32,000 nt of DNA. Source: Coprobacillaceae bacterium. GTDB taxonomy: Bacteria > Bacillota_I > Bacilli_A > Erysipelotrichales > Coprobacillaceae. The stretch's first letter is position 1. Each line of letters starts with the position of its first letter. Below, one piece after another: positions 3,499 to 8,504 of this stretch. The notes under the pieces were generated by a model that searched no databases, was not told the DNA's origin, and saw only the letters and a program-made list of their open reading frames with translations. The position numbers were made by a program, and so were the translations under genes. The stretch covers positions 2,040,001-2,072,000 of the forward strand of contig OY776328.1 in the NCBI GenBank assembly GCA_963675515.1. Reading direction: 5' to 3'.

Positions 3499-3876
3499 CC
3501 CTAACAATAACAAAAATGGCGCTTGATCCATGACTTTTCCAAACATCCGGTTTCAAAGGTAGGTCGTTTGCAACTTAAGCACTACCGGACGCTTGTTTGG
3601 TTATGATATCTGATTATTTTCTTTAGGCACATTGTCCCCCCGATCCAGTCTTTTCCTAAAAACAAAAAACCTTAAGAAAATTTTTTCATAATTTGAACGA
3701 ATTTAACATCCCTCATATTGTCAAGGTAGAATGATAAAAAAACGAGGAGCTAACTATATTTAAATCAAGTGTTTTTTGATAATTAGCTGAATTTATTATT
3801 AGATTTTTGAAAAGTGAATTTGTGTACACTGAAAACAACCACACAGTGGCCTTGGAATTTATTTTACAGTTGTAAA

Positions 3877-5046
3877 TTATTTGAGTTCCGATTCGTCAAA
3901 CGTGATGTTTTCAGATAACAGTTTATAAATTACTCTTATTAGTTTTCTAATCGAATGTCCTTGAGCGCAGCGATGTGATTTACCTTGAGAACGTTTTAGG
4001 TTATAATAACTATTGAAAGTGGAGTTGTGGGTGCATACTGGAAGAATGCATTGGTAAAGTGTCTTTCTCAAATAACGTGAACCACGTTTTGACAAAGCAG
4101 TTTGTGGGGCGTTGTATTCTCCGGATTGATATGTTCCAGGATCAACACCTGCAAAACCGATAACTTTAGCTGGGGAGCTAAAATTGTCGAGATCCCCAAT
4201 TTCACTTAATATTGACATTCCTGAGTATATACCAATGCCAGGGATAGTAAAGATAGGAGAATTTAGTGCGATGGCTAGTTCTTCTATTTTTTTATCCACT
4301 ATTTCCAAGTGCTGCTCAGATAAATCAAGGGATTCAATAAGCATTTTGATTTCCATGGTAATTATTTCGTTGTTCTCGCCGATTGATTGTTTAGCTGCTT
4401 CGCGAATTGCCAAGGCATCAACCTTCACAGTTCTACCTTTTCCTTGTTGCCGCAAGACATTTTTAAGATGAGCAAGATTGGCATTGGCTAGATTGTATGA
4501 GTTCCCAAACTCTCTTAAAATAGCCATGTAAGCCCGAGAATACTTGGTTTTGAACCAACTGTTTATTTCAGGAATTACGGTATCAATGCACTTTTGAAGT
4601 CTGTTTTTAAGCTGGTTGATATCTTCAGTAAGTGTTGCGTGATACCGGGTAAGTTCTTTGGCTTGTTTCAATGCCAACTTGCGTTTTGTAACCTTGGTGT
4701 AGTTCTTGTCGAACAGCACAGAGCAGATCAGGAAAGTATCTTTCTTATCGTTTTTGGTCTTCCTGATTTTTCCACGACGCTTGGCATCAGTTGTCAAAGG
4801 ATTTATCATCCCGACTTCGTAGCTGTTTGATACTAGAAAATTTACGATGTTGTCACCGTAGTGACCTGTCGCCTCTAGTCCGACAATATGCCTTGAAGAA
4901 TTGAATTTTCTTGTGTTTTTAAGAAATAAGTCAAATCCATTACGGCTATTGGTGAAGAAAAAAGGTTCGACCAACACTTCGCCATTTGAGTCAACAACGC
5001 AGGCACAGTGTTTGAATTTACCTACGTCAATACCGATGTAATACAT
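3877..5046 (-). CDS. IS110-family transposase / bridge recombinase (DEDD RuvC-like domain plus C-terminal Tnp domain)
   Basis: MYYIGIDVGKFKH.., GLEATGHY, then a C-terminal IPGIGIYSG..LSEIGD..F..FAGVDPGTYQSG..SKRGSRYLR. I moved the start from the track's TTG at 5130 to ATG 5046, which begins the conserved MYYIGIDVGK N-terminus and has an AAAGGA RBS. Confidence 0.9.
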   Translation of the reverse strand: MYYIGIDVGKFKHCACVVDSNGEVLVEPFFFTNSRNGFDLFLKNTRKFNSSRHIVGLEATGHYGDNIVNFLVSNSYEVGMINPLTTDAKRRGKIRKTKNDKKDTFLICSVLFDKNYTKVTKRKLALKQAKELTRYHATLTEDINQLKNRLQKCIDTVIPEINSWFKTKYSRAYMAILREFGNSYNLANANLAHLKNVLRQQGKGRTVKVDALAIREAAKQSIGENNEIITMEIKMLIESLDLSEQHLEIVDKKIEELAIALNSPIFTIPGIGIYSGMSILSEIGDLDNFSSPAKVIGFAGVDPGTYQSGEYNAPQTALSKRGSRYLRKTLYQCILPVCTHNSTFNSYYNLKRSQGKSHRCAQGHSIRKLIRVIYKLLSENITFDESELK

Positions 5047-5297
5047 GATAACACGTCCTTTCGTAATAGGTGAGATGTGATATATCCACATACAAGGTAT
5101 CAAAGATCCTGGTGCAAAATACAAGTTCAAAGACTTATCTAACTAATTTCAATTCAGATACGAAGATGTGGCAATTTCCTCCTCGAGGTAGTCAAGCTAC
5201 AGGAATAAAACATCAAAGTACACATTCACAATTCAATTCTATAACAAAAATAAAAGAAAGGAAAATGTATATCATAAATTGACTACTAGATAAGTCA
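5047..5297 (-). ncRNA. Candidate IS110 bridge RNA region (5' non-coding end of the element)
   Basis: About 250 nt upstream of the recombinase with no credible ORF. Contains several local hairpins, plus a 10-nt perfect complement between 5132-5141 and 5287-5296. The family is known to encode a structured guide RNA in this position. Confidence 0.4.
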
Positions 5298-5304
5298 TTT
5301 ATAA

Positions 5305-5940
<636 letters not shown>

Positions 5941-6610
5941 TAGGCATGAAATGGGAGGATTTTCCAATAGGAAAATCACAACTGAATATTCAATACTTGG
6001 AATGATGGCTGTCATGTTAGCCTGAAACAAGTAGTCTGATACTCCTACACGCATGAGGTTATAACAGTAAAATTATGTGTGAAGCTAGGTGAAGTCGGCT
6101 GAACAATACCTAAGTGATATATCATATGGTAAAGGATAGGCCGGGACGCTATAAATTATCTATGGTGAGAATGTCCGTGTAAGGACTGACGAAACTGCGA
6201 ATGTACGGGTCTAGAAAGTCGTGCTATTGAAAGGTGGCATGTTGCGTGCGCAACGATGAATATCGAAAAGTAAGAATCGTTGATATGAAATTCGAGATAC
6301 TCGACAATGAGGGTATAATTCATCAGGCTCATAGCAGGAACCTAAGGATAAATGTAAAGCTAGAATATTTGGAACGTTGTAAGCGAGAAACGTCTATTAA
6401 ACGACTGTTATCGGGACGGTAACTATAAGTGTAAACGAAGTGTTTTTATTCTCGTGAAAGTAGGGGCACAGTACCGATGAAGCCACGAAAAATGGTGGAG
6501 GGATAGCCCCAAGTCTGGTTCTTTAAAAATCAGTTACAGTTAAATGAAGCTCACAGGGTCTGATAAGATGATGGGAAACAATTGTTCTAAACGAAAGGAA
6601 TAATCCATCG

Positions 6611-8405
6611 GTGAGCACGGGATTACGAAACAACGAATATTACAGTATGCAGGAAACTTTTGACTGGTTGTATCAAATGAGTTTAAACAATGATACTTAC
6701 GGGATAGATCTTTATAATCTGGTGATATCCAGGAACAATATACTCCTCGCCTATCGAAACATCAAAAGCAACACCGGAAGTCACACTAAAGGCACTGACG
6801 GCCTTACTATTGATGATTACAAGATAGAAAACGTTGAGAAATTTATTCAGGATATTAGACTATCGCTATTGGACTATAAACCAAAAACGGTAAGAAGAGT
6901 AGAAATACCTAAACCTAATGGAAAATTACGACCATTGGGAATACCAACGATGCATGACAGACTGATTCAACAGATGTTCAAACAGATACTTGAACCAATC
7001 TGCGAAGCGAAGTTTCATAAGCATTCATATGGATTTAGAGCCAATCGCTCAACCCATAATGCTTTGTCAAGATGTTGCCATATCGCCAATATGACGCACA
7101 ATCACTATGTTGTTGATTTGGATATCGAATCGTTCTTTGACAATGTCAATCATACCAAGTTAATCAAACAACTTTGGAATATCGGCATCAAGGATAATCA
7201 GGTACTGACGATTATAAGTAGAATGCTGAAAGCTCCCATCAAAGGAGTAGGTGTCCCACACTGTGGGACACCACAGGGCAGGAGTGCTTTCGCCATTACT
7301 TTCAAACGTAGTGTTGAACGATCTGGACTGGTGGATAAGCAATCAATGGGAAACATTCAATGCTGATTATAAATGTCCATATAAGTATAGAGTACTCAAG
7401 AAAACCAATCTAAAAGAAATGTATGCGGTAAGGTATGCCGATGACGCACGAGTCTTCACTTGCAGTTATAAAAATGCGGTAAGGATATATCATGCGGTCA
7501 AGGAATATCTGAAGAATGAACTTAAACTTAATGTTTCACCTGAAAAGTCAAAGATTACCAATCTAAGGAAACGTAGGTCGGACTATTTGGGGTTTGAAAT
7601 GAAGCTGGTACCAAAGCGCAAGAAGTACGTTGCGAATACCTTTGTATCGGCGAAAAGTAAAATAAAAATCAAAGCGGAAATAAGGAAAAGAGTTATCGAG
7701 ATACAGCGTCATACAATTTCCAAGAATATCCACAATTATAATTCATATATACTGGGGATAAGAAATTATTATGAAGCTGCAACACATGTAAATATAGATT
7801 TTAGAAATGTTTACCATCAGACGCTCAAGACCTTGTACAACCGATTGAAACCAATAGCTAAATATGAAGTACCCAGGAGTCCCCCACCGTTGTATAAGAA
7901 GTTATTTAAGAATAACTATCGCACATTCACGATTGGAGCCATTTCATTGTTTCCACTGGCGGATACGCAGTGGAAATTGAAGACAAACTTCAATCAAAAC
8001 ATATGCAACTATACCCAAGAGGGGCGCAAATTAGTTTATAAACGATTAGAAAATAATGTAACCTCAGTTATGAAGAGGTTGCTGGAACTGCCAATTGGAA
8101 ACGGAAGTGTGGAATATCGGGATAACACAATCTCAAAGTATTCAATGCAAAAAGGGCGTTGTGGAATCACCCAGTTGTTTCTAACGGCCGAGGAAATACA
8201 CTGTCATCACATTGTTTCCGTTGGAGATGGTGGAACCGATAATTTTGACAATCTAATCATTATTCACAAAGAAGTACATAAACTAATACACGGTAATAAT
8301 CAGGAAACTGAAAAAACGCTATTGAAAAAGTTCAATCTAAACAAAACACAGCTTAAAAAACTGAACATGTTGCGTAAGAGATGTAATTTAACTGAAATAA
8401 ATTAA
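6611..8405 (+). pseudogene. Group II intron-encoded reverse transcriptase/maturase with C-terminal HNH endonuclease domain, split by a +1 frameshift at ~7280
   Basis: Frame 1 (6611-7366) carries RT motifs up to ..GVPHCGTPQG. Frame 2 (7251-8405) continues GVLSPLLSNVVLNDLDWW, RYADDARVF (YADD), the maturase region, and HCHHIVSVGDGGTDNFDNLIIIHKEVHKLIH (HNH). Confidence 0.85.
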
Positions 8406-8422
8406 AGAAGAATTAGATGGAA

Positions 8423-8454
8423 CGCCGTGTGCGGTGAAAGTCGCATGCACGGTG
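8423..8454 (+). ncRNA. Group II intron domain V
   Basis: CGCCGUGU-GCGGU-GAAA-GUCGC-AU-GCACGGUG: two helices, a GAAA tetraloop and a 2-nt bulge, with a CGC catalytic triad. Lies ~50 nt before the 3' splice site. Confidence 0.8.
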
Positions 8455-8504
8455 TGGAGCGGGGGAAAAGATGGAGATAACATCAAAGTCTTACCTATCG
8501 CTAT

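What the first reader, a model, noticed from the sequence alone, without database searches (positions are those of the whole stretch)
5047..5297. ORF-free 5' end of the IS110 element: candidate bridge (guide) RNA with a 10-nt match to the junction
IS110-family recombinases are known to use a structured non-coding bridge RNA encoded in the non-coding end next to the recombinase gene. Its two loops base-pair with target and donor DNA. Here ~250 nt upstream of the recombinase ATG (5046) have no credible ORF. On the element strand they contain several hairpins: GUAG-CUUGA-CUAC within 5180-5195, UAUCU..AGAUA at 5159-5135, and AUGUG..CACAU at ~5090-5074. GACTTATCTA (5132-5141), inside this region, is perfectly complementary to TAGATAAGTC (5287-5296) at the presumed left junction. 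That fits either a guide-loop/DNA-end pair or a closing helix enclosing about 145 nt. My rough estimate for a chance 10-nt complement within 250 nt is a few percent, and somewhat higher in AT-rich DNA. I cannot assign the loops or guides from one copy.
Basis: partly seen in the sequence, partly recalled or inferred. Interest (0 to 1): 0.8.

Follow-up and report, generated by a model that had tools for sequence, protein, structure and literature searches.

The report
IS110 bridge RNA aimed at ribosome-binding sites

Summary
Window 3750-5310 (minus strand) is a 1,563-bp IS110-family element, counting one copy of its CT core. A syntenic relative (L126) has the site empty.

The element sits between the Shine-Dalgarno sequence and the ATG of a GH1 glucosidase gene. 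About 70 related copies conserve the non-coding left end. I could assign all four guides:
- LTG 5206-5201, which equals the left flank plus core.
- RTG 5185-5179, the complement of core plus right flank.
- LDG 5145-5137, which equals the right-end terminus.
- RDG 5113-5109, the complement of core plus the left-end start.

RTG and LTG track the flanks of their own copies (permutation p<=2e-4). Joining the two ends gives a TTGATT-17-TATATT promoter.

Two corrections apply. The junction is at 5310/5311, not 5287-5296. The 10-nt pair is the core of a covarying long-range RNA helix of about 22 bp. This helix joins the RNA's 5' leader to the donor-loop strand that carries the LDG, and it competes with the donor loop's inner stem. 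IS621 has no such helix.

This is a new member of a known kind, with a possibly new self-masking feature. Nothing here tests expression or activity.

The parts
5313..5322 (-). Left target flank (LT) CATAAGATTC on the element strand. CAT is the reverse complement of the ATG (5320-5322, +) of the GH1 6-phospho-beta-glucosidase gene.
   Evidence: Sequence; ORF list; syntenic empty site in L126.
5311..5312 (-). Left copy of the CT core dinucleotide.
   Evidence: CT flanks both ends in all clade-1 copies. L126 has a single AG (= CT) at the empty site.
5303..5311 (-). Extended -10 promoter element TGgTATATT at the very left-end terminus (hexamer 5308-5303). The T of the TG is the core T.
   Evidence: Columns 2-10 are nearly invariant in 55 relatives. 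The geometry is the same as in IS621.
5296..5296 (-). Predicted transcription start (left end +15), inferred from the -10 position and from the identical geometry in IS621.
   Evidence: Inference. In IS621 (L121) the RNA 5' end AGTGCAG also lies at left end +15.
5275..5296 (-). 5' leader arm of the long-range helix.
   Evidence: RNAalifold consensus helix; covariation; present in the MFE of 10/10 representatives; pair probability >0.5 in 55/55.
5256..5276 (-). Anti-SD / anti-start segment (UAUGAUAUACAUUUUCCUUUC), complementary to the recombinase SD and AUG (5062-5044).
   Evidence: MFE of the 253-nt RNA. The SD lies inside the best duplex in 48/54 relatives.
5221..5225 (-). Basal stem of the target-binding loop (TBL), 5' arm AUGUG. 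It pairs with 5170-5166.
   Evidence: Pair 122-176 switches U-A (25) / C-G (29).
5201..5209 (-). Left target guide (LTG). AUUCCU at 5206-5201 is identical to LT plus core (ATTC-CT).
   Evidence: Own LTG-LT match exceeds permuted pairs, p<=2e-4. Most variable segment.
5188..5200 (-). TBL inner hairpin GUAG-CUUGA-CUAC.
   Evidence: 99.5% paired, 2 pairs with compensatory changes.
5179..5185 (-). Right target guide (RTG) CGAGGAG, the reverse complement of core plus right flank (CT-CCTCG).
   Evidence: Own RTG-RT match is 6.67/9 against 4.44/9 for cross pairs, p<=2e-4.
5166..5170 (-). TBL basal stem, 3' arm CACAU.
5157..5161 (-). Basal stem of the donor-binding loop (DBL), 5' arm GUAUC. It pairs with 5101-5097.
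   Evidence: 4 of 5 pairs show changes on both sides.
5137..5145 (-). Left donor guide (LDG) UAGUUAG-AU. Its first 7 nt are identical to the right-end terminus TAGTTAG (3756-3750).
   Evidence: The position 2 nt from the right-end terminus (col 207) covaries with the right end in two lineages: TTGG/UUGG in the L004 group and TTCA/UUCG in L013.
5132..5141 (-). It overlaps the 3' part of the LDG and the 5' arm of the DBL inner stem. The full partner of the leader runs 5156-5132.
5121..5126 (-). Arm B' (ACUUGU), the 3' arm of the DBL inner stem. It pairs with 5138-5133 and so competes with arm A for arm B.
   Evidence: 89% paired; pairs 211-243 and 214-240 are compensatory.
5109..5113 (-). Right donor guide (RDG) ACCAG, the reverse complement of core plus left-end start (CT-GGT).
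   Evidence: It covaries in three lineages: CTAGT/ACUAG, ATGGT/ACCAU, and GTT/AAC in L064.
5097..5101 (-). DBL basal stem, 3' arm GAUAC.
5075..5091 (-). Hairpin AUGUG-GAUAUAU-CACAU between the DBL and the recombinase RBS. Its role is unknown; it may lie at the 3' end of the RNA.
   Evidence: Sequence. A hairpin sits here in both clades but cannot be aligned in register.
3877..5046 (-). IS110-family recombinase gene (389 aa; SD GAAAGGA at 5062-5056).
   Evidence: Pfam DEDD_Tnp_IS110 1.3e-37 and Transposase_20 2.8e-22. PDB IS621 transposase 5e-17 and ISCro4 1e-15.
3837..3851 (-). Terminator-like hairpin after the recombinase stop codon.
   Evidence: conserved in relatives.
3763..3768 (-). -35 hexamer TTGATT in the right end. 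In the circular form it lies 17 nt from the left-end -10.
   Evidence: TTGAYT is conserved and the 17-nt spacing is kept in all three subgroups.
3750..3756 (-). Right-end terminus TAGTTAG (left donor, LD).
3748..3749 (-). Right copy of the CT core.
3741..3747 (-). Right target flank (RT) CCTCGTT, the reverse complement of the host gene's Shine-Dalgarno sequence (AACGAGG + AG).

Best explanation
Window 5296 to about 5097 (minus strand) encodes the bridge RNA of a 1,563-bp IS110-family element (3750-5310 plus one CT core).

Shown by sequence comparison:
- The element has precise ends, and a relative has the site empty.
- The left end is conserved as non-coding sequence.
- The left end contains two stem/internal-loop/hairpin modules.
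- In the first module (target-binding loop), the 5' strand repeats the left flank plus core (LTG AUUCCU). The 3' strand is complementary to core plus right flank (RTG CGAGGAG).
- In the second module (donor-binding loop), the 5' strand repeats the right-end terminus (LDG UAGUUAG). The 3' strand is complementary to core plus left-end start (RDG ACCAG).
- These segments change together with their DNA partners across relatives.
- The target is a translation-initiation region. The element sits between the SD and the ATG of a host gene, antisense to it.

Inferred by analogy with IS621:
- Excision joins the right and left ends and creates a strong promoter (TTGATT-17-TATATT).
- The RNA starts at about 5296.
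- The recombinase-RNA complex pairs the guides with target and donor DNA and exchanges strands at the CT core.

The helix joins the 5' leader (5296-5275) to the 5' strand of the donor loop (5156-5132). In the free RNA this helix closes off the target-loop module, covers the LDG and excludes the donor loop's inner stem (5138-5133 / 5126-5121).

My best guess, not shown, is that this is a closed, self-masked state that must open when recombinase or donor DNA binds. A second leader segment (5276-5256) can instead pair with the recombinase SD and AUG.
For: Recombinase identity:
- Pfam DEDD_Tnp_IS110 and Transposase_20.
- PDB IS621 and ISCro4 transposases.
- The catalytic-motif regions align: IGID, EATG, D..D and YxSG.

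Ends and target:
- 53 distinct left and 40 distinct right junctions give the same boundaries.
- Syntenic L126 (83-91% nt identity) has ...ATGGAGGTAGCTTATG uninterrupted, where the window has ...GAGGAG[IS]AGGAATCTTATG.

Conservation:
- nhmmer finds the left-end profile in about 70 loci.
- The alignment holds 55 distinct sequences.

Guides:
- Table of guides and flanks.
- RTG against own right flank scores 6.67/9 versus 4.44/9 for cross pairs; LTG scores 5.06 versus 4.16. Both have p<=2e-4.
- Donor guides covary with the element ends in five lineage-specific changes.
- The guide strands are the least conserved segments (0.68-0.79 column identity) next to a 0.95-0.97 hairpin.

Stems: TBL basal, TBL inner, DBL basal and DBL inner stems all have compensatory pairs.

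Promoter: -35 in the right end, extended -10 in the left end, 17-nt spacing.

Leader helix:
- RNAalifold selects it.
- Four pairs show double changes. Of the 17 non-Watson-Crick cells in the 7-bp core, 14 are G-U wobbles. That points to RNA on this strand.
- It is in the MFE of 10/10 representatives.
- Mean pair probability is 0.99 in 55/55 sequences. The duplex is -21.7 kcal/mol against -7.3 for shuffled leaders.
- Own leaders bind better than foreign ones: -21.2 versus -15.0 kcal/mol, p<=2e-4.
Against: - There are no expression, binding or activity data. The transcription start is inferred.
- No published bridge-RNA covariance model was available, and Rfam has none.
- The single-sequence fold of the window copy is not unusually stable: z = -1.09.
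- RNAalifold recovers only 4 short helices.
- The window's LTG matches only 6 nt. LTG-flank matches are weak or shifted in many clade-2 copies.
- The LDG core reads AU where the clade-1 donor core is CT. The LDG position next to the core is G in all copies, whatever the right end carries.
- A free-RNA fold that buries the LDG is not what the IS621 architecture predicts.
- When the 5' UTR up to the ATG is included, the helix wins in only 35/55 sequences.
- The permutation and swap tests do not correct for relatedness among the sequences.
Confidence: 0.87

Rival explanations
1. The 10-nt match is an RNA-DNA contact. [quoted passage not shown]
For: The segment overlaps the LDG. Its orientation is compatible with an antiparallel pairing on the same DNA strand that the RDG reads. 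Covariation cannot distinguish an RNA partner from a DNA partner of identical sequence.
Against: Most departures from Watson-Crick in the core helix are G-U wobbles, 14 of 17 cells, and the extended helix uses more of them. These would be mismatches against DNA. The site lies 15-24 bp from the crossover, well beyond the roughly 7-9 nt read by IS621 guides (PMC11208160). The same RNA segment also has a covarying intramolecular partner B'.
Confidence: 0.07
2. The region is only a regulatory 5' UTR of the recombinase mRNA, with translation control through the anti-SD helix. It has no guide function.
For: A leader segment complementary to the SD and AUG is present in nearly all relatives. No transcript data separate a discrete small RNA from the mRNA leader.
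Against: This does not explain why two short hypervariable strands match each copy's own flanks. It also does not explain why two others track the element's ends.
Confidence: 0.04
3. The complement reflects DNA-level subterminal repeats, such as recombinase-binding sites or a promoter element, rather than any RNA structure.
For: Arm A lies just downstream of the -10 element. A weak promoter-like match (5298-5271) overlaps it. An imperfect left-end/right-end inverted motif exists elsewhere in the element.
Against: The pattern of substitutions is strand-specific and tolerates G-U. The internal promoter-like spacing is not conserved: 16, 19 and 22 nt in different subgroups. The helix extends to about 22 bp only when wobble pairs are allowed.
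Confidence: 0.04
4. The 10-nt complement is a chance feature of AT-rich DNA.
For: 2.8% of shuffles give a perfect inverted repeat of 10 nt or more.
Against: The pair is conserved in 55/55 relatives at 41-77% protein identity, with compensatory changes at four positions.
Confidence: 0.01

Closest known systems
IS621 bridge RNA (IS110 group; Durrant et al. 2024, PMC11208160; Hiraizumi et al. 2024, PMC11208158)
   Same: - Left-end-encoded RNA upstream of a DEDD/Ser recombinase.
- CT core at both ends.
- -35 in the right end and -10 at left end +3 to +8, with the start at left end +15.
- Module order is target loop, then donor loop.
- Within each loop: a 5' strand identical to the left DNA half plus core, an inner hairpin, and a 3' strand complementary to core plus the right half.
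- Similar donor-loop 3' strand: GUAUUUGCAAGG in IS621 and GUAUUUUGCACCAGG here.
   Different: - Only about 23-30% protein identity over the aligned segments. The protein here is 389 aa against 326.
- The RNA is about 200 nt and ends about 50 nt before the ATG.
- The RTG is 7 nt rather than 4.
- The target is a translation-initiation region, not a REP element.
- IS621's leader forms its own 5' stem-loop and has no complementarity to its LDG region (z = +0.37). Here the leader pairs with the LDG strand.
IS900 group of the IS110 family (Mycobacterium)
   Same: Orientation-specific insertion between the RBS and the start codon. The IS900 motif is CATGNNNNNNTCTCCTT (PMC8141618; Doran et al. 1997, cited there). 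Here 48/53 left junctions carry CAT 2-12 nt from the core, and 30/40 right junctions carry an SD complement.
   Different: The host phylum differs. No 'hed'-like ORF spans the complementary strand here. The relationship between the IS900 and window proteins was not tested.
seekRNA of ISEc21 (IS110 type) and IS1111 elements (Siddiquee et al. 2024, PMC11187229)
   Same: An RNA derived from the non-coding region matches both strands of the target. A promoter is created at the circle junction.
   Different: The seekRNA description emphasises the target-matching part. IS1111 types carry it downstream of the gene and have subterminal inverted repeats.
CazIS110-1 bridge RNA with an abundant TBL-only RNA (Sun et al. 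2025, bioRxiv 10.1101/2025.10.25.684509)
   Same: An element from Caloranaerobacter azorensis. A separate target-loop-only RNA species exists there. Here the leader helix closes off exactly the target-loop module.
   Different: There is no evidence here for a truncated RNA. I did not compare the sequences.

Membership tests
IS110-group bridge RNA system | Adjacent recombinase with a DEDD RuvC-like domain and a Tnp domain carrying a catalytic Ser. | tested here: met
   Pfam PF01548 and PF02371. PDB IS621/ISCro4 transposase hits. The IGID, EATG, D..D and Y-x-S-G motifs align with IS621. The residue roles come from my own knowledge of IS621.
IS110-group bridge RNA system | Long conserved non-coding left end on the recombinase strand, with no conserved ORF. 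| tested here: met
   Left end of 265 nt (5310-5047). It is conserved in about 70 loci, with no ORF conserved in strand or frame.
IS110-group bridge RNA system | Identical core dinucleotide at both element boundaries and precise, site-specific insertion. | tested here: met
   CT at 5312-5311 and at 3749-3748. The empty site in L126 has one copy.
IS110-group bridge RNA system | Sigma-70 promoter reconstituted across the right-end/left-end junction of the circular form. | tested here: met
   Sequence only: TTGATT (3768-3763), 17 nt, then TGgTATATT (5311-5303). The spacing is kept in all subgroups. Promoter activity was not tested.
IS110-group bridge RNA system | Target-binding loop. LTG is identical to the left-target top strand plus core; RTG is complementary to core plus right target. 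Both covary with natural targets. | tested here: met
   Window LTG matches 6 nt and RTG 7 nt. Family-wide permutation tests give p<=2e-4 for both. The RTG signal is strong and the LTG signal weaker.
IS110-group bridge RNA system | Donor-binding loop. LDG is identical to the right-end terminus; RDG is complementary to core plus the left-end start. Both covary with the ends. | tested here: met
   LDG matches 7 nt and RDG 5 nt. There are two (LDG) and three (RDG) lineage-specific co-changes. The core positions of the LDG do not match in clade 1.
IS110-group bridge RNA system | Two stem / internal-loop / hairpin modules supported by covariation. | tested here: met
   TBL basal and inner stems and DBL basal and inner stems all have compensatory pairs. 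The unguided RNAalifold consensus is sparse.
IS110-group bridge RNA system | Match to a curated or published bridge-RNA covariance model. | not testable with these tools
   Rfam 15 gives no hit here. It also gives none on the genuine IS621 bridge RNA, so the negative result is uninformative.
IS110-group bridge RNA system | The RNA is expressed, binds the recombinase and is required for recombination. | not testable with these tools
   No transcriptome or biochemical data are available.
IS900-like elements that target translation-initiation regions | Orientation-specific insertion between the SD and the start codon of a host gene. | tested here: met
   In the window the reconstructed site is GAGGAG|GAATCTTATG. 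The IS900 motif is in PMC8141618.
IS900-like elements that target translation-initiation regions | A 'hed' ORF spanning the complementary strand and expressed from host signals. | tested here: not met
   The longest + strand ORFs inside 3750-5310 are 95, 78 and 70 aa.

The most novel reading that the evidence does not exclude
The bridge RNA of this lineage is self-masked. Its first 22 nt or so act as an intramolecular anti-guide that pairs with the left donor guide and displaces the donor loop's inner stem. A neighbouring leader segment can instead sequester the recombinase SD and AUG. The two long-range pairings cross each other. The RNA could therefore toggle between two states. In one, the donor guide is hidden and translation is open. 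In the other, the donor guide is free and translation is closed. This would couple guide availability to recombinase synthesis. No such switch has been described for IS621-type bridge RNAs.
Probability: 0.25. Interest if true: 0.7.

Novelty: new member of a known kind. Interest (0 to 1): 0.5.

Why it matters
The finding turns a plausible guess into a fully annotated natural bridge-RNA system. It now has ends, core, promoter halves and all four guides, from a gut Erysipelotrichales lineage far from IS621.

The family provides dozens of natural reprogramming events of the target loop. Examples of RTG variants are GGAGGAU, GAGGUAU, AGGAGAU, GAGGGAU, AAGAAAG and AGACGAG. Each is found next to a matching flank. 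This is useful comparative material for guide rules, including 7-nt RTGs and tolerance in the LTG.

It also gives an RNA-level explanation for the long-known habit of IS900-type elements of landing between the RBS and the start codon. The RTG is itself SD-like, and many LTGs contain CAU.

The conserved leader-to-donor-guide helix is absent from IS621. If it is functional, it would be a built-in regulator of donor binding. That would matter both for the element's biology and for engineering such RNAs.

Tried and rejected
- Rfam at gathering and at E<=10 gave only noise in 3500-5500. The control on IS621 shows Rfam has no bridge-RNA family, so I dropped this as evidence.
- Exact-protein look-ups of the 87-aa neighbour and of P0001 found nothing. 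Genes at 81% identity (L122-L125) are not syntenic and show only that AGGAGGAAT is a normal SD there. The real empty site came from cluster member P0121 / L126.
- Single-sequence folding: the z-score of -1.09 is not informative.
- A local 5' hairpin (5296-5293 / 5284-5281) is only 32% paired in relatives, so I rejected it as a conserved helix.
- The internal promoter-like site 5298-5271 does not keep its spacing across subgroups, so I rejected it.
- Coding explanations (70-aa + strand ORF, TTG-extended recombinase) are not conserved.
- There is no second copy of the element in the window.
- I did not build my own covariance model. It would match the window by construction and would add nothing to the membership question.

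Full report
WHAT IS IN THE SEQUENCE

The gene at 5046-3877 (minus strand, 389 aa) is an IS110-family recombinase. Pfam gives DEDD_Tnp_IS110 at 1.3e-37 and Transposase_20 at 2.8e-22. Its only relatives among solved structures are the IS621 and ISCro4 transposases, at 5e-17 and 1e-15. The IGID, EATG, D..D and Y-x-S-G motif regions align with IS621.

It occurs by chance in 2.8% of dinucleotide shuffles of the region.

ELEMENT ENDS AND TARGET

A protein-seeded scan of representative genomes and metagenomes returned 120 related loci. They come mostly from Erysipelotrichales (Thomasclavelia, Coprobacillaceae, Solobacterium, Bulleidia) at 41-77% identity. A Campylobacterales group is more distant, at 27-29%.

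The non-coding DNA upstream of the gene is conserved in about 70 of these loci. Conservation starts abruptly at ...CT|GGTATAT and ends at ...TATAGTTAG|CT. In the window this gives:
- left end starting at 5310;
- right end finishing at 3750;
- CT on both sides (5312-5311 and 3749-3748);
- 1,563 bp, counting one core.

A syntenic contig from a related strain (L126; hydF-hydG-hydE-TM1266-like-GH1; 83-91% nt identity) lacks the element. It reads ...AAAAAAACTATGGAGGTAGCTTATGAGC, where the window reads ...AAAAAAACGAGGAG[IS]AGGAATCTTATGAGC.

The element therefore sits between the Shine-Dalgarno sequence and the ATG (5320) of a GH1 6-phospho-beta-glucosidase gene, antisense to that gene.

PROMOTER

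The left end begins with an extended -10 element, TGgTATATT (hexamer 5308-5303). The right end carries TTGATT (3768-3763). Joining the ends through one core gives TTGATT-17 nt-TATATT. The 17-nt spacing is kept in all three subgroups; one of them has TTGACT-17-TATAAT.

The geometry is the same as in IS621. I retrieved IS621 from E. coli as a control. There the -10 occupies left end +3 to +8, and the RNA 5' end lies at left end +15. The 177-nt RNA driven by the junction promoter is described in PMC11208160.

GUIDE ASSIGNMENT

Durrant et al. define the guides as follows:
- LTG and LDG have the sequence of the top strand of the left target or left donor, plus core.
- RTG and RDG are complementary to core plus the right target or right donor.

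Applying this to the window gives four guides:
- LTG AUUCCU (5206-5201) matches the flank ATTC-CT.
- RTG CGAGGAG (5185-5179) is complementary to CT-CCTCG.
- LDG UAGUUAG (5145-5139, followed by AU) matches the right-end terminus TAGTTAG.
- RDG ACCAG (5113-5109) is complementary to CT-GGT.

Between LTG and RTG lies the hairpin GUAG-CUUGA-CUAC (5200-5188).

Across the family, the RTG changes with the right flank of each copy. Examples are GGAGGAU / ATCCTCC, GAGGUAU / ATACCTC, AGGAGAU / ATCTCCT, GAGGGAU / ATCCCTC, GAAGGAU / ATCCTTC, UAAGAAAG / CTTTCTTA and AGACGAG / CTCGTCT.

Own-pair matches exceed within-clade permuted pairs. RTG scores 6.67 of 9 against 4.44. LTG scores 5.06 against 4.16. Both have p<=2e-4. 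This test does not correct for relatedness.

The donor guides follow lineage-specific changes of the ends:
- right end TTGG with LDG UUGG;
- right end TTCA with LDG UUCG;
- left end CTAGT with RDG ACUAG;
- core AT with RDG ACCAU;
- left end GTT with RDG AAC.

The LTG and RTG strands are the least conserved parts of the left end, at 0.68-0.79 mean column identity. The hairpin between them is the most conserved, at 0.95-0.97.

The basal and inner stems of both modules contain compensatory pairs.

Together these meet every sequence-level criterion of an IS110-group bridge RNA. Expression and activity remain untested.

THE 10-NT MATCH

RNAalifold, run on 55 distinct left ends, picks columns 19-25 / 208-214 as a consensus helix.

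Pair counts show double-sided changes at four positions:
- G-C/A-U at 19-214;
- C-G/U-A at 22-211;
- U-A/C-G at 21-212;
- U-A/C-G at 26-207.

Fourteen of the 17 non-Watson-Crick cells in the core are G-U. That argues for an RNA helix on the recombinase strand rather than a DNA repeat or an RNA-DNA contact.

When the RNA is taken from the predicted start to the end of the donor module, the helix behaves consistently:
- It is in the MFE of 10/10 representatives and extends to about 22 bp (5296-5275 with 5156-5132 in the window).
- Its mean pair probability is 0.99 in 55/55 sequences.
- On average 7.9 of the 9 LDG nucleotides are paired.
- The leader/LDG-region duplex averages -21.7 kcal/mol, against -7.3 for shuffled leaders.
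- Own leaders bind their own region better than foreign ones: -21.2 versus -15.0 kcal/mol, p<=2e-4.

The downstream arm has a second covarying partner, the 3' arm of the donor loop's inner stem (5138-5133 with 5126-5121). That pairing has two compensatory pairs. The two pairings exclude each other.

IS621 shows nothing comparable. Its leader folds on itself, and its complementarity to its own LDG region is at chance level (z = +0.37).

It closes the target-loop module and, in the free RNA, covers the left donor guide. Whether this is a regulatory masked state or a purely architectural helix cannot be decided here. I favour masking, but only weakly.

TARGET TYPE

Of 53 distinct left junctions, 48 have CAT (a start codon on the other strand) 2-12 nt from the core, against 12.8 expected. 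Of 40 right junctions, 30 begin with an SD complement. Many clade-2 LTGs contain CAU, and their RTGs read like SD sequences.

This habit is already known for IS900. Its motif is CATGNNNNNNTCTCCTT, and Doran et al. 1997 is titled 'IS900 targets translation initiation signals...' (PMC8141618). None of the bridge-RNA papers listed by the search, which required 3 of 4 terms, mentions Shine-Dalgarno. The RNA-level reading may therefore be new. The phenomenon itself is not.

OTHER FEATURES OF THE REGION

A leader segment (5276-5256, containing UCCUUUC) is complementary to the recombinase SD and AUG (5062-5044). It dominates the MFE of the full 253-nt RNA. Its counterpart covers the SD in 48/54 relatives.

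This pairing crosses the leader helix. When the UTR is included, the leader helix wins in only 35/55 sequences.

NEGATIVE AND CONTROL RESULTS

- Rfam has no hit here. It also has none on the genuine IS621 RNA.
- The single-sequence fold energy is unremarkable.
- A local 5' hairpin is not conserved.
- No ORF in the region is conserved.

VERDICT

This is a new member of the bridge-RNA kind, from a lineage that targets translation-initiation regions. It has one feature not seen in IS621, the leader/donor-guide helix, which is worth an experiment.

Noticed in passing
window 5915-8504 (+): A group II intron interrupts the same GH1 gene that the IS sits in front of. Its boundaries come from comparison with the intron-less L126, and Rfam domains hit at 5977-6155 and 8420-8504. 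Its reverse-transcriptase ORF is split into two overlapping frames (6611-7366 and 7251-8405), which suggests a frameshift. The gene is therefore hit twice by mobile elements.
   Followed up: partly
window 5276-5256 and 5062-5044 (-): A leader segment containing UCCUUUC (CUCCUUUC in clade 2, close to the 3' end of 16S rRNA) is complementary to the recombinase SD and start codon. It is present in 48/54 relatives. It probably acts as cis translational repression, and it crosses the leader helix.
   Followed up: partly
window 5229-5218 and 3827-3814 (-): The left-end motif GTGAATGTGTAC, which contains the 5' arm of the TBL basal stem, recurs inverted in the right end as GTACACAAATTCAC. Both blocks are conserved in both clades. 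Its meaning is unknown; it could be a recombinase site or an RNA-RNA contact.
   Followed up: no
clade-2 loci, e.g. L007-L011, L055-L075: The core is asymmetric. The left junction reads TT (mostly) or AT, while the right junction always reads AT. The LTG ends in UU, whereas RTG, LDG and RDG all encode AT. In clade 1 the LDG core reads AU against a CT donor core. These positions may correspond to the 'handshake' positions described for IS621 (PMC13626964). I did not analyse them.
   Followed up: no
L023-L033, L103-L120 (Campylobacterales and others): Distant relatives (27-29% aa identity) also have CAT-N4-8 before a constant CTCC|TACTAATAAATTT left boundary. They therefore also sit at translation-initiation regions. 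Their 5' leader (AUGUAAAGAGAUAAGCAAG) pairs with the 3' end of the left-end RNA (CUUGCUUAUCUGUUUACAU), with clear compensatory changes. I did not map their right ends or guides.
   Followed up: partly
L121:1779-1880 (E. coli IS621 copy): The first ~72 bp of the IS621 left end are duplicated in tandem. The second copy starts immediately after the first copy's own LTG sequence (ATCGGGCCT|TGTATTATCCC). This looks like an IS621 insertion into the LTG-encoding DNA of another copy, i.e. self-targeting.
   Followed up: no
L014:4180-4490: One relative is 1,955 bp long instead of about 1,640. A GC-rich insert of about 310 bp with terminal inverted repeats (TAGAGTCCGGCGAAAAGGGCC ... GGCCCTTTTTGCCGGACTCTAA) lies between the recombinase stop codon and the right-end block. 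It could be a small nested element or cargo.
   Followed up: no
L045/L046/L048 (2789-2989); L001/L003: Some relatives are rearranged. L045, L046 and L048 carry a second partial left-end copy downstream of the first. The Thomasclavelia loci L001 and L003 have a 5'-truncated recombinase gene, and L001 carries a left-end fragment inverted about 2 kb downstream.
   Followed up: no
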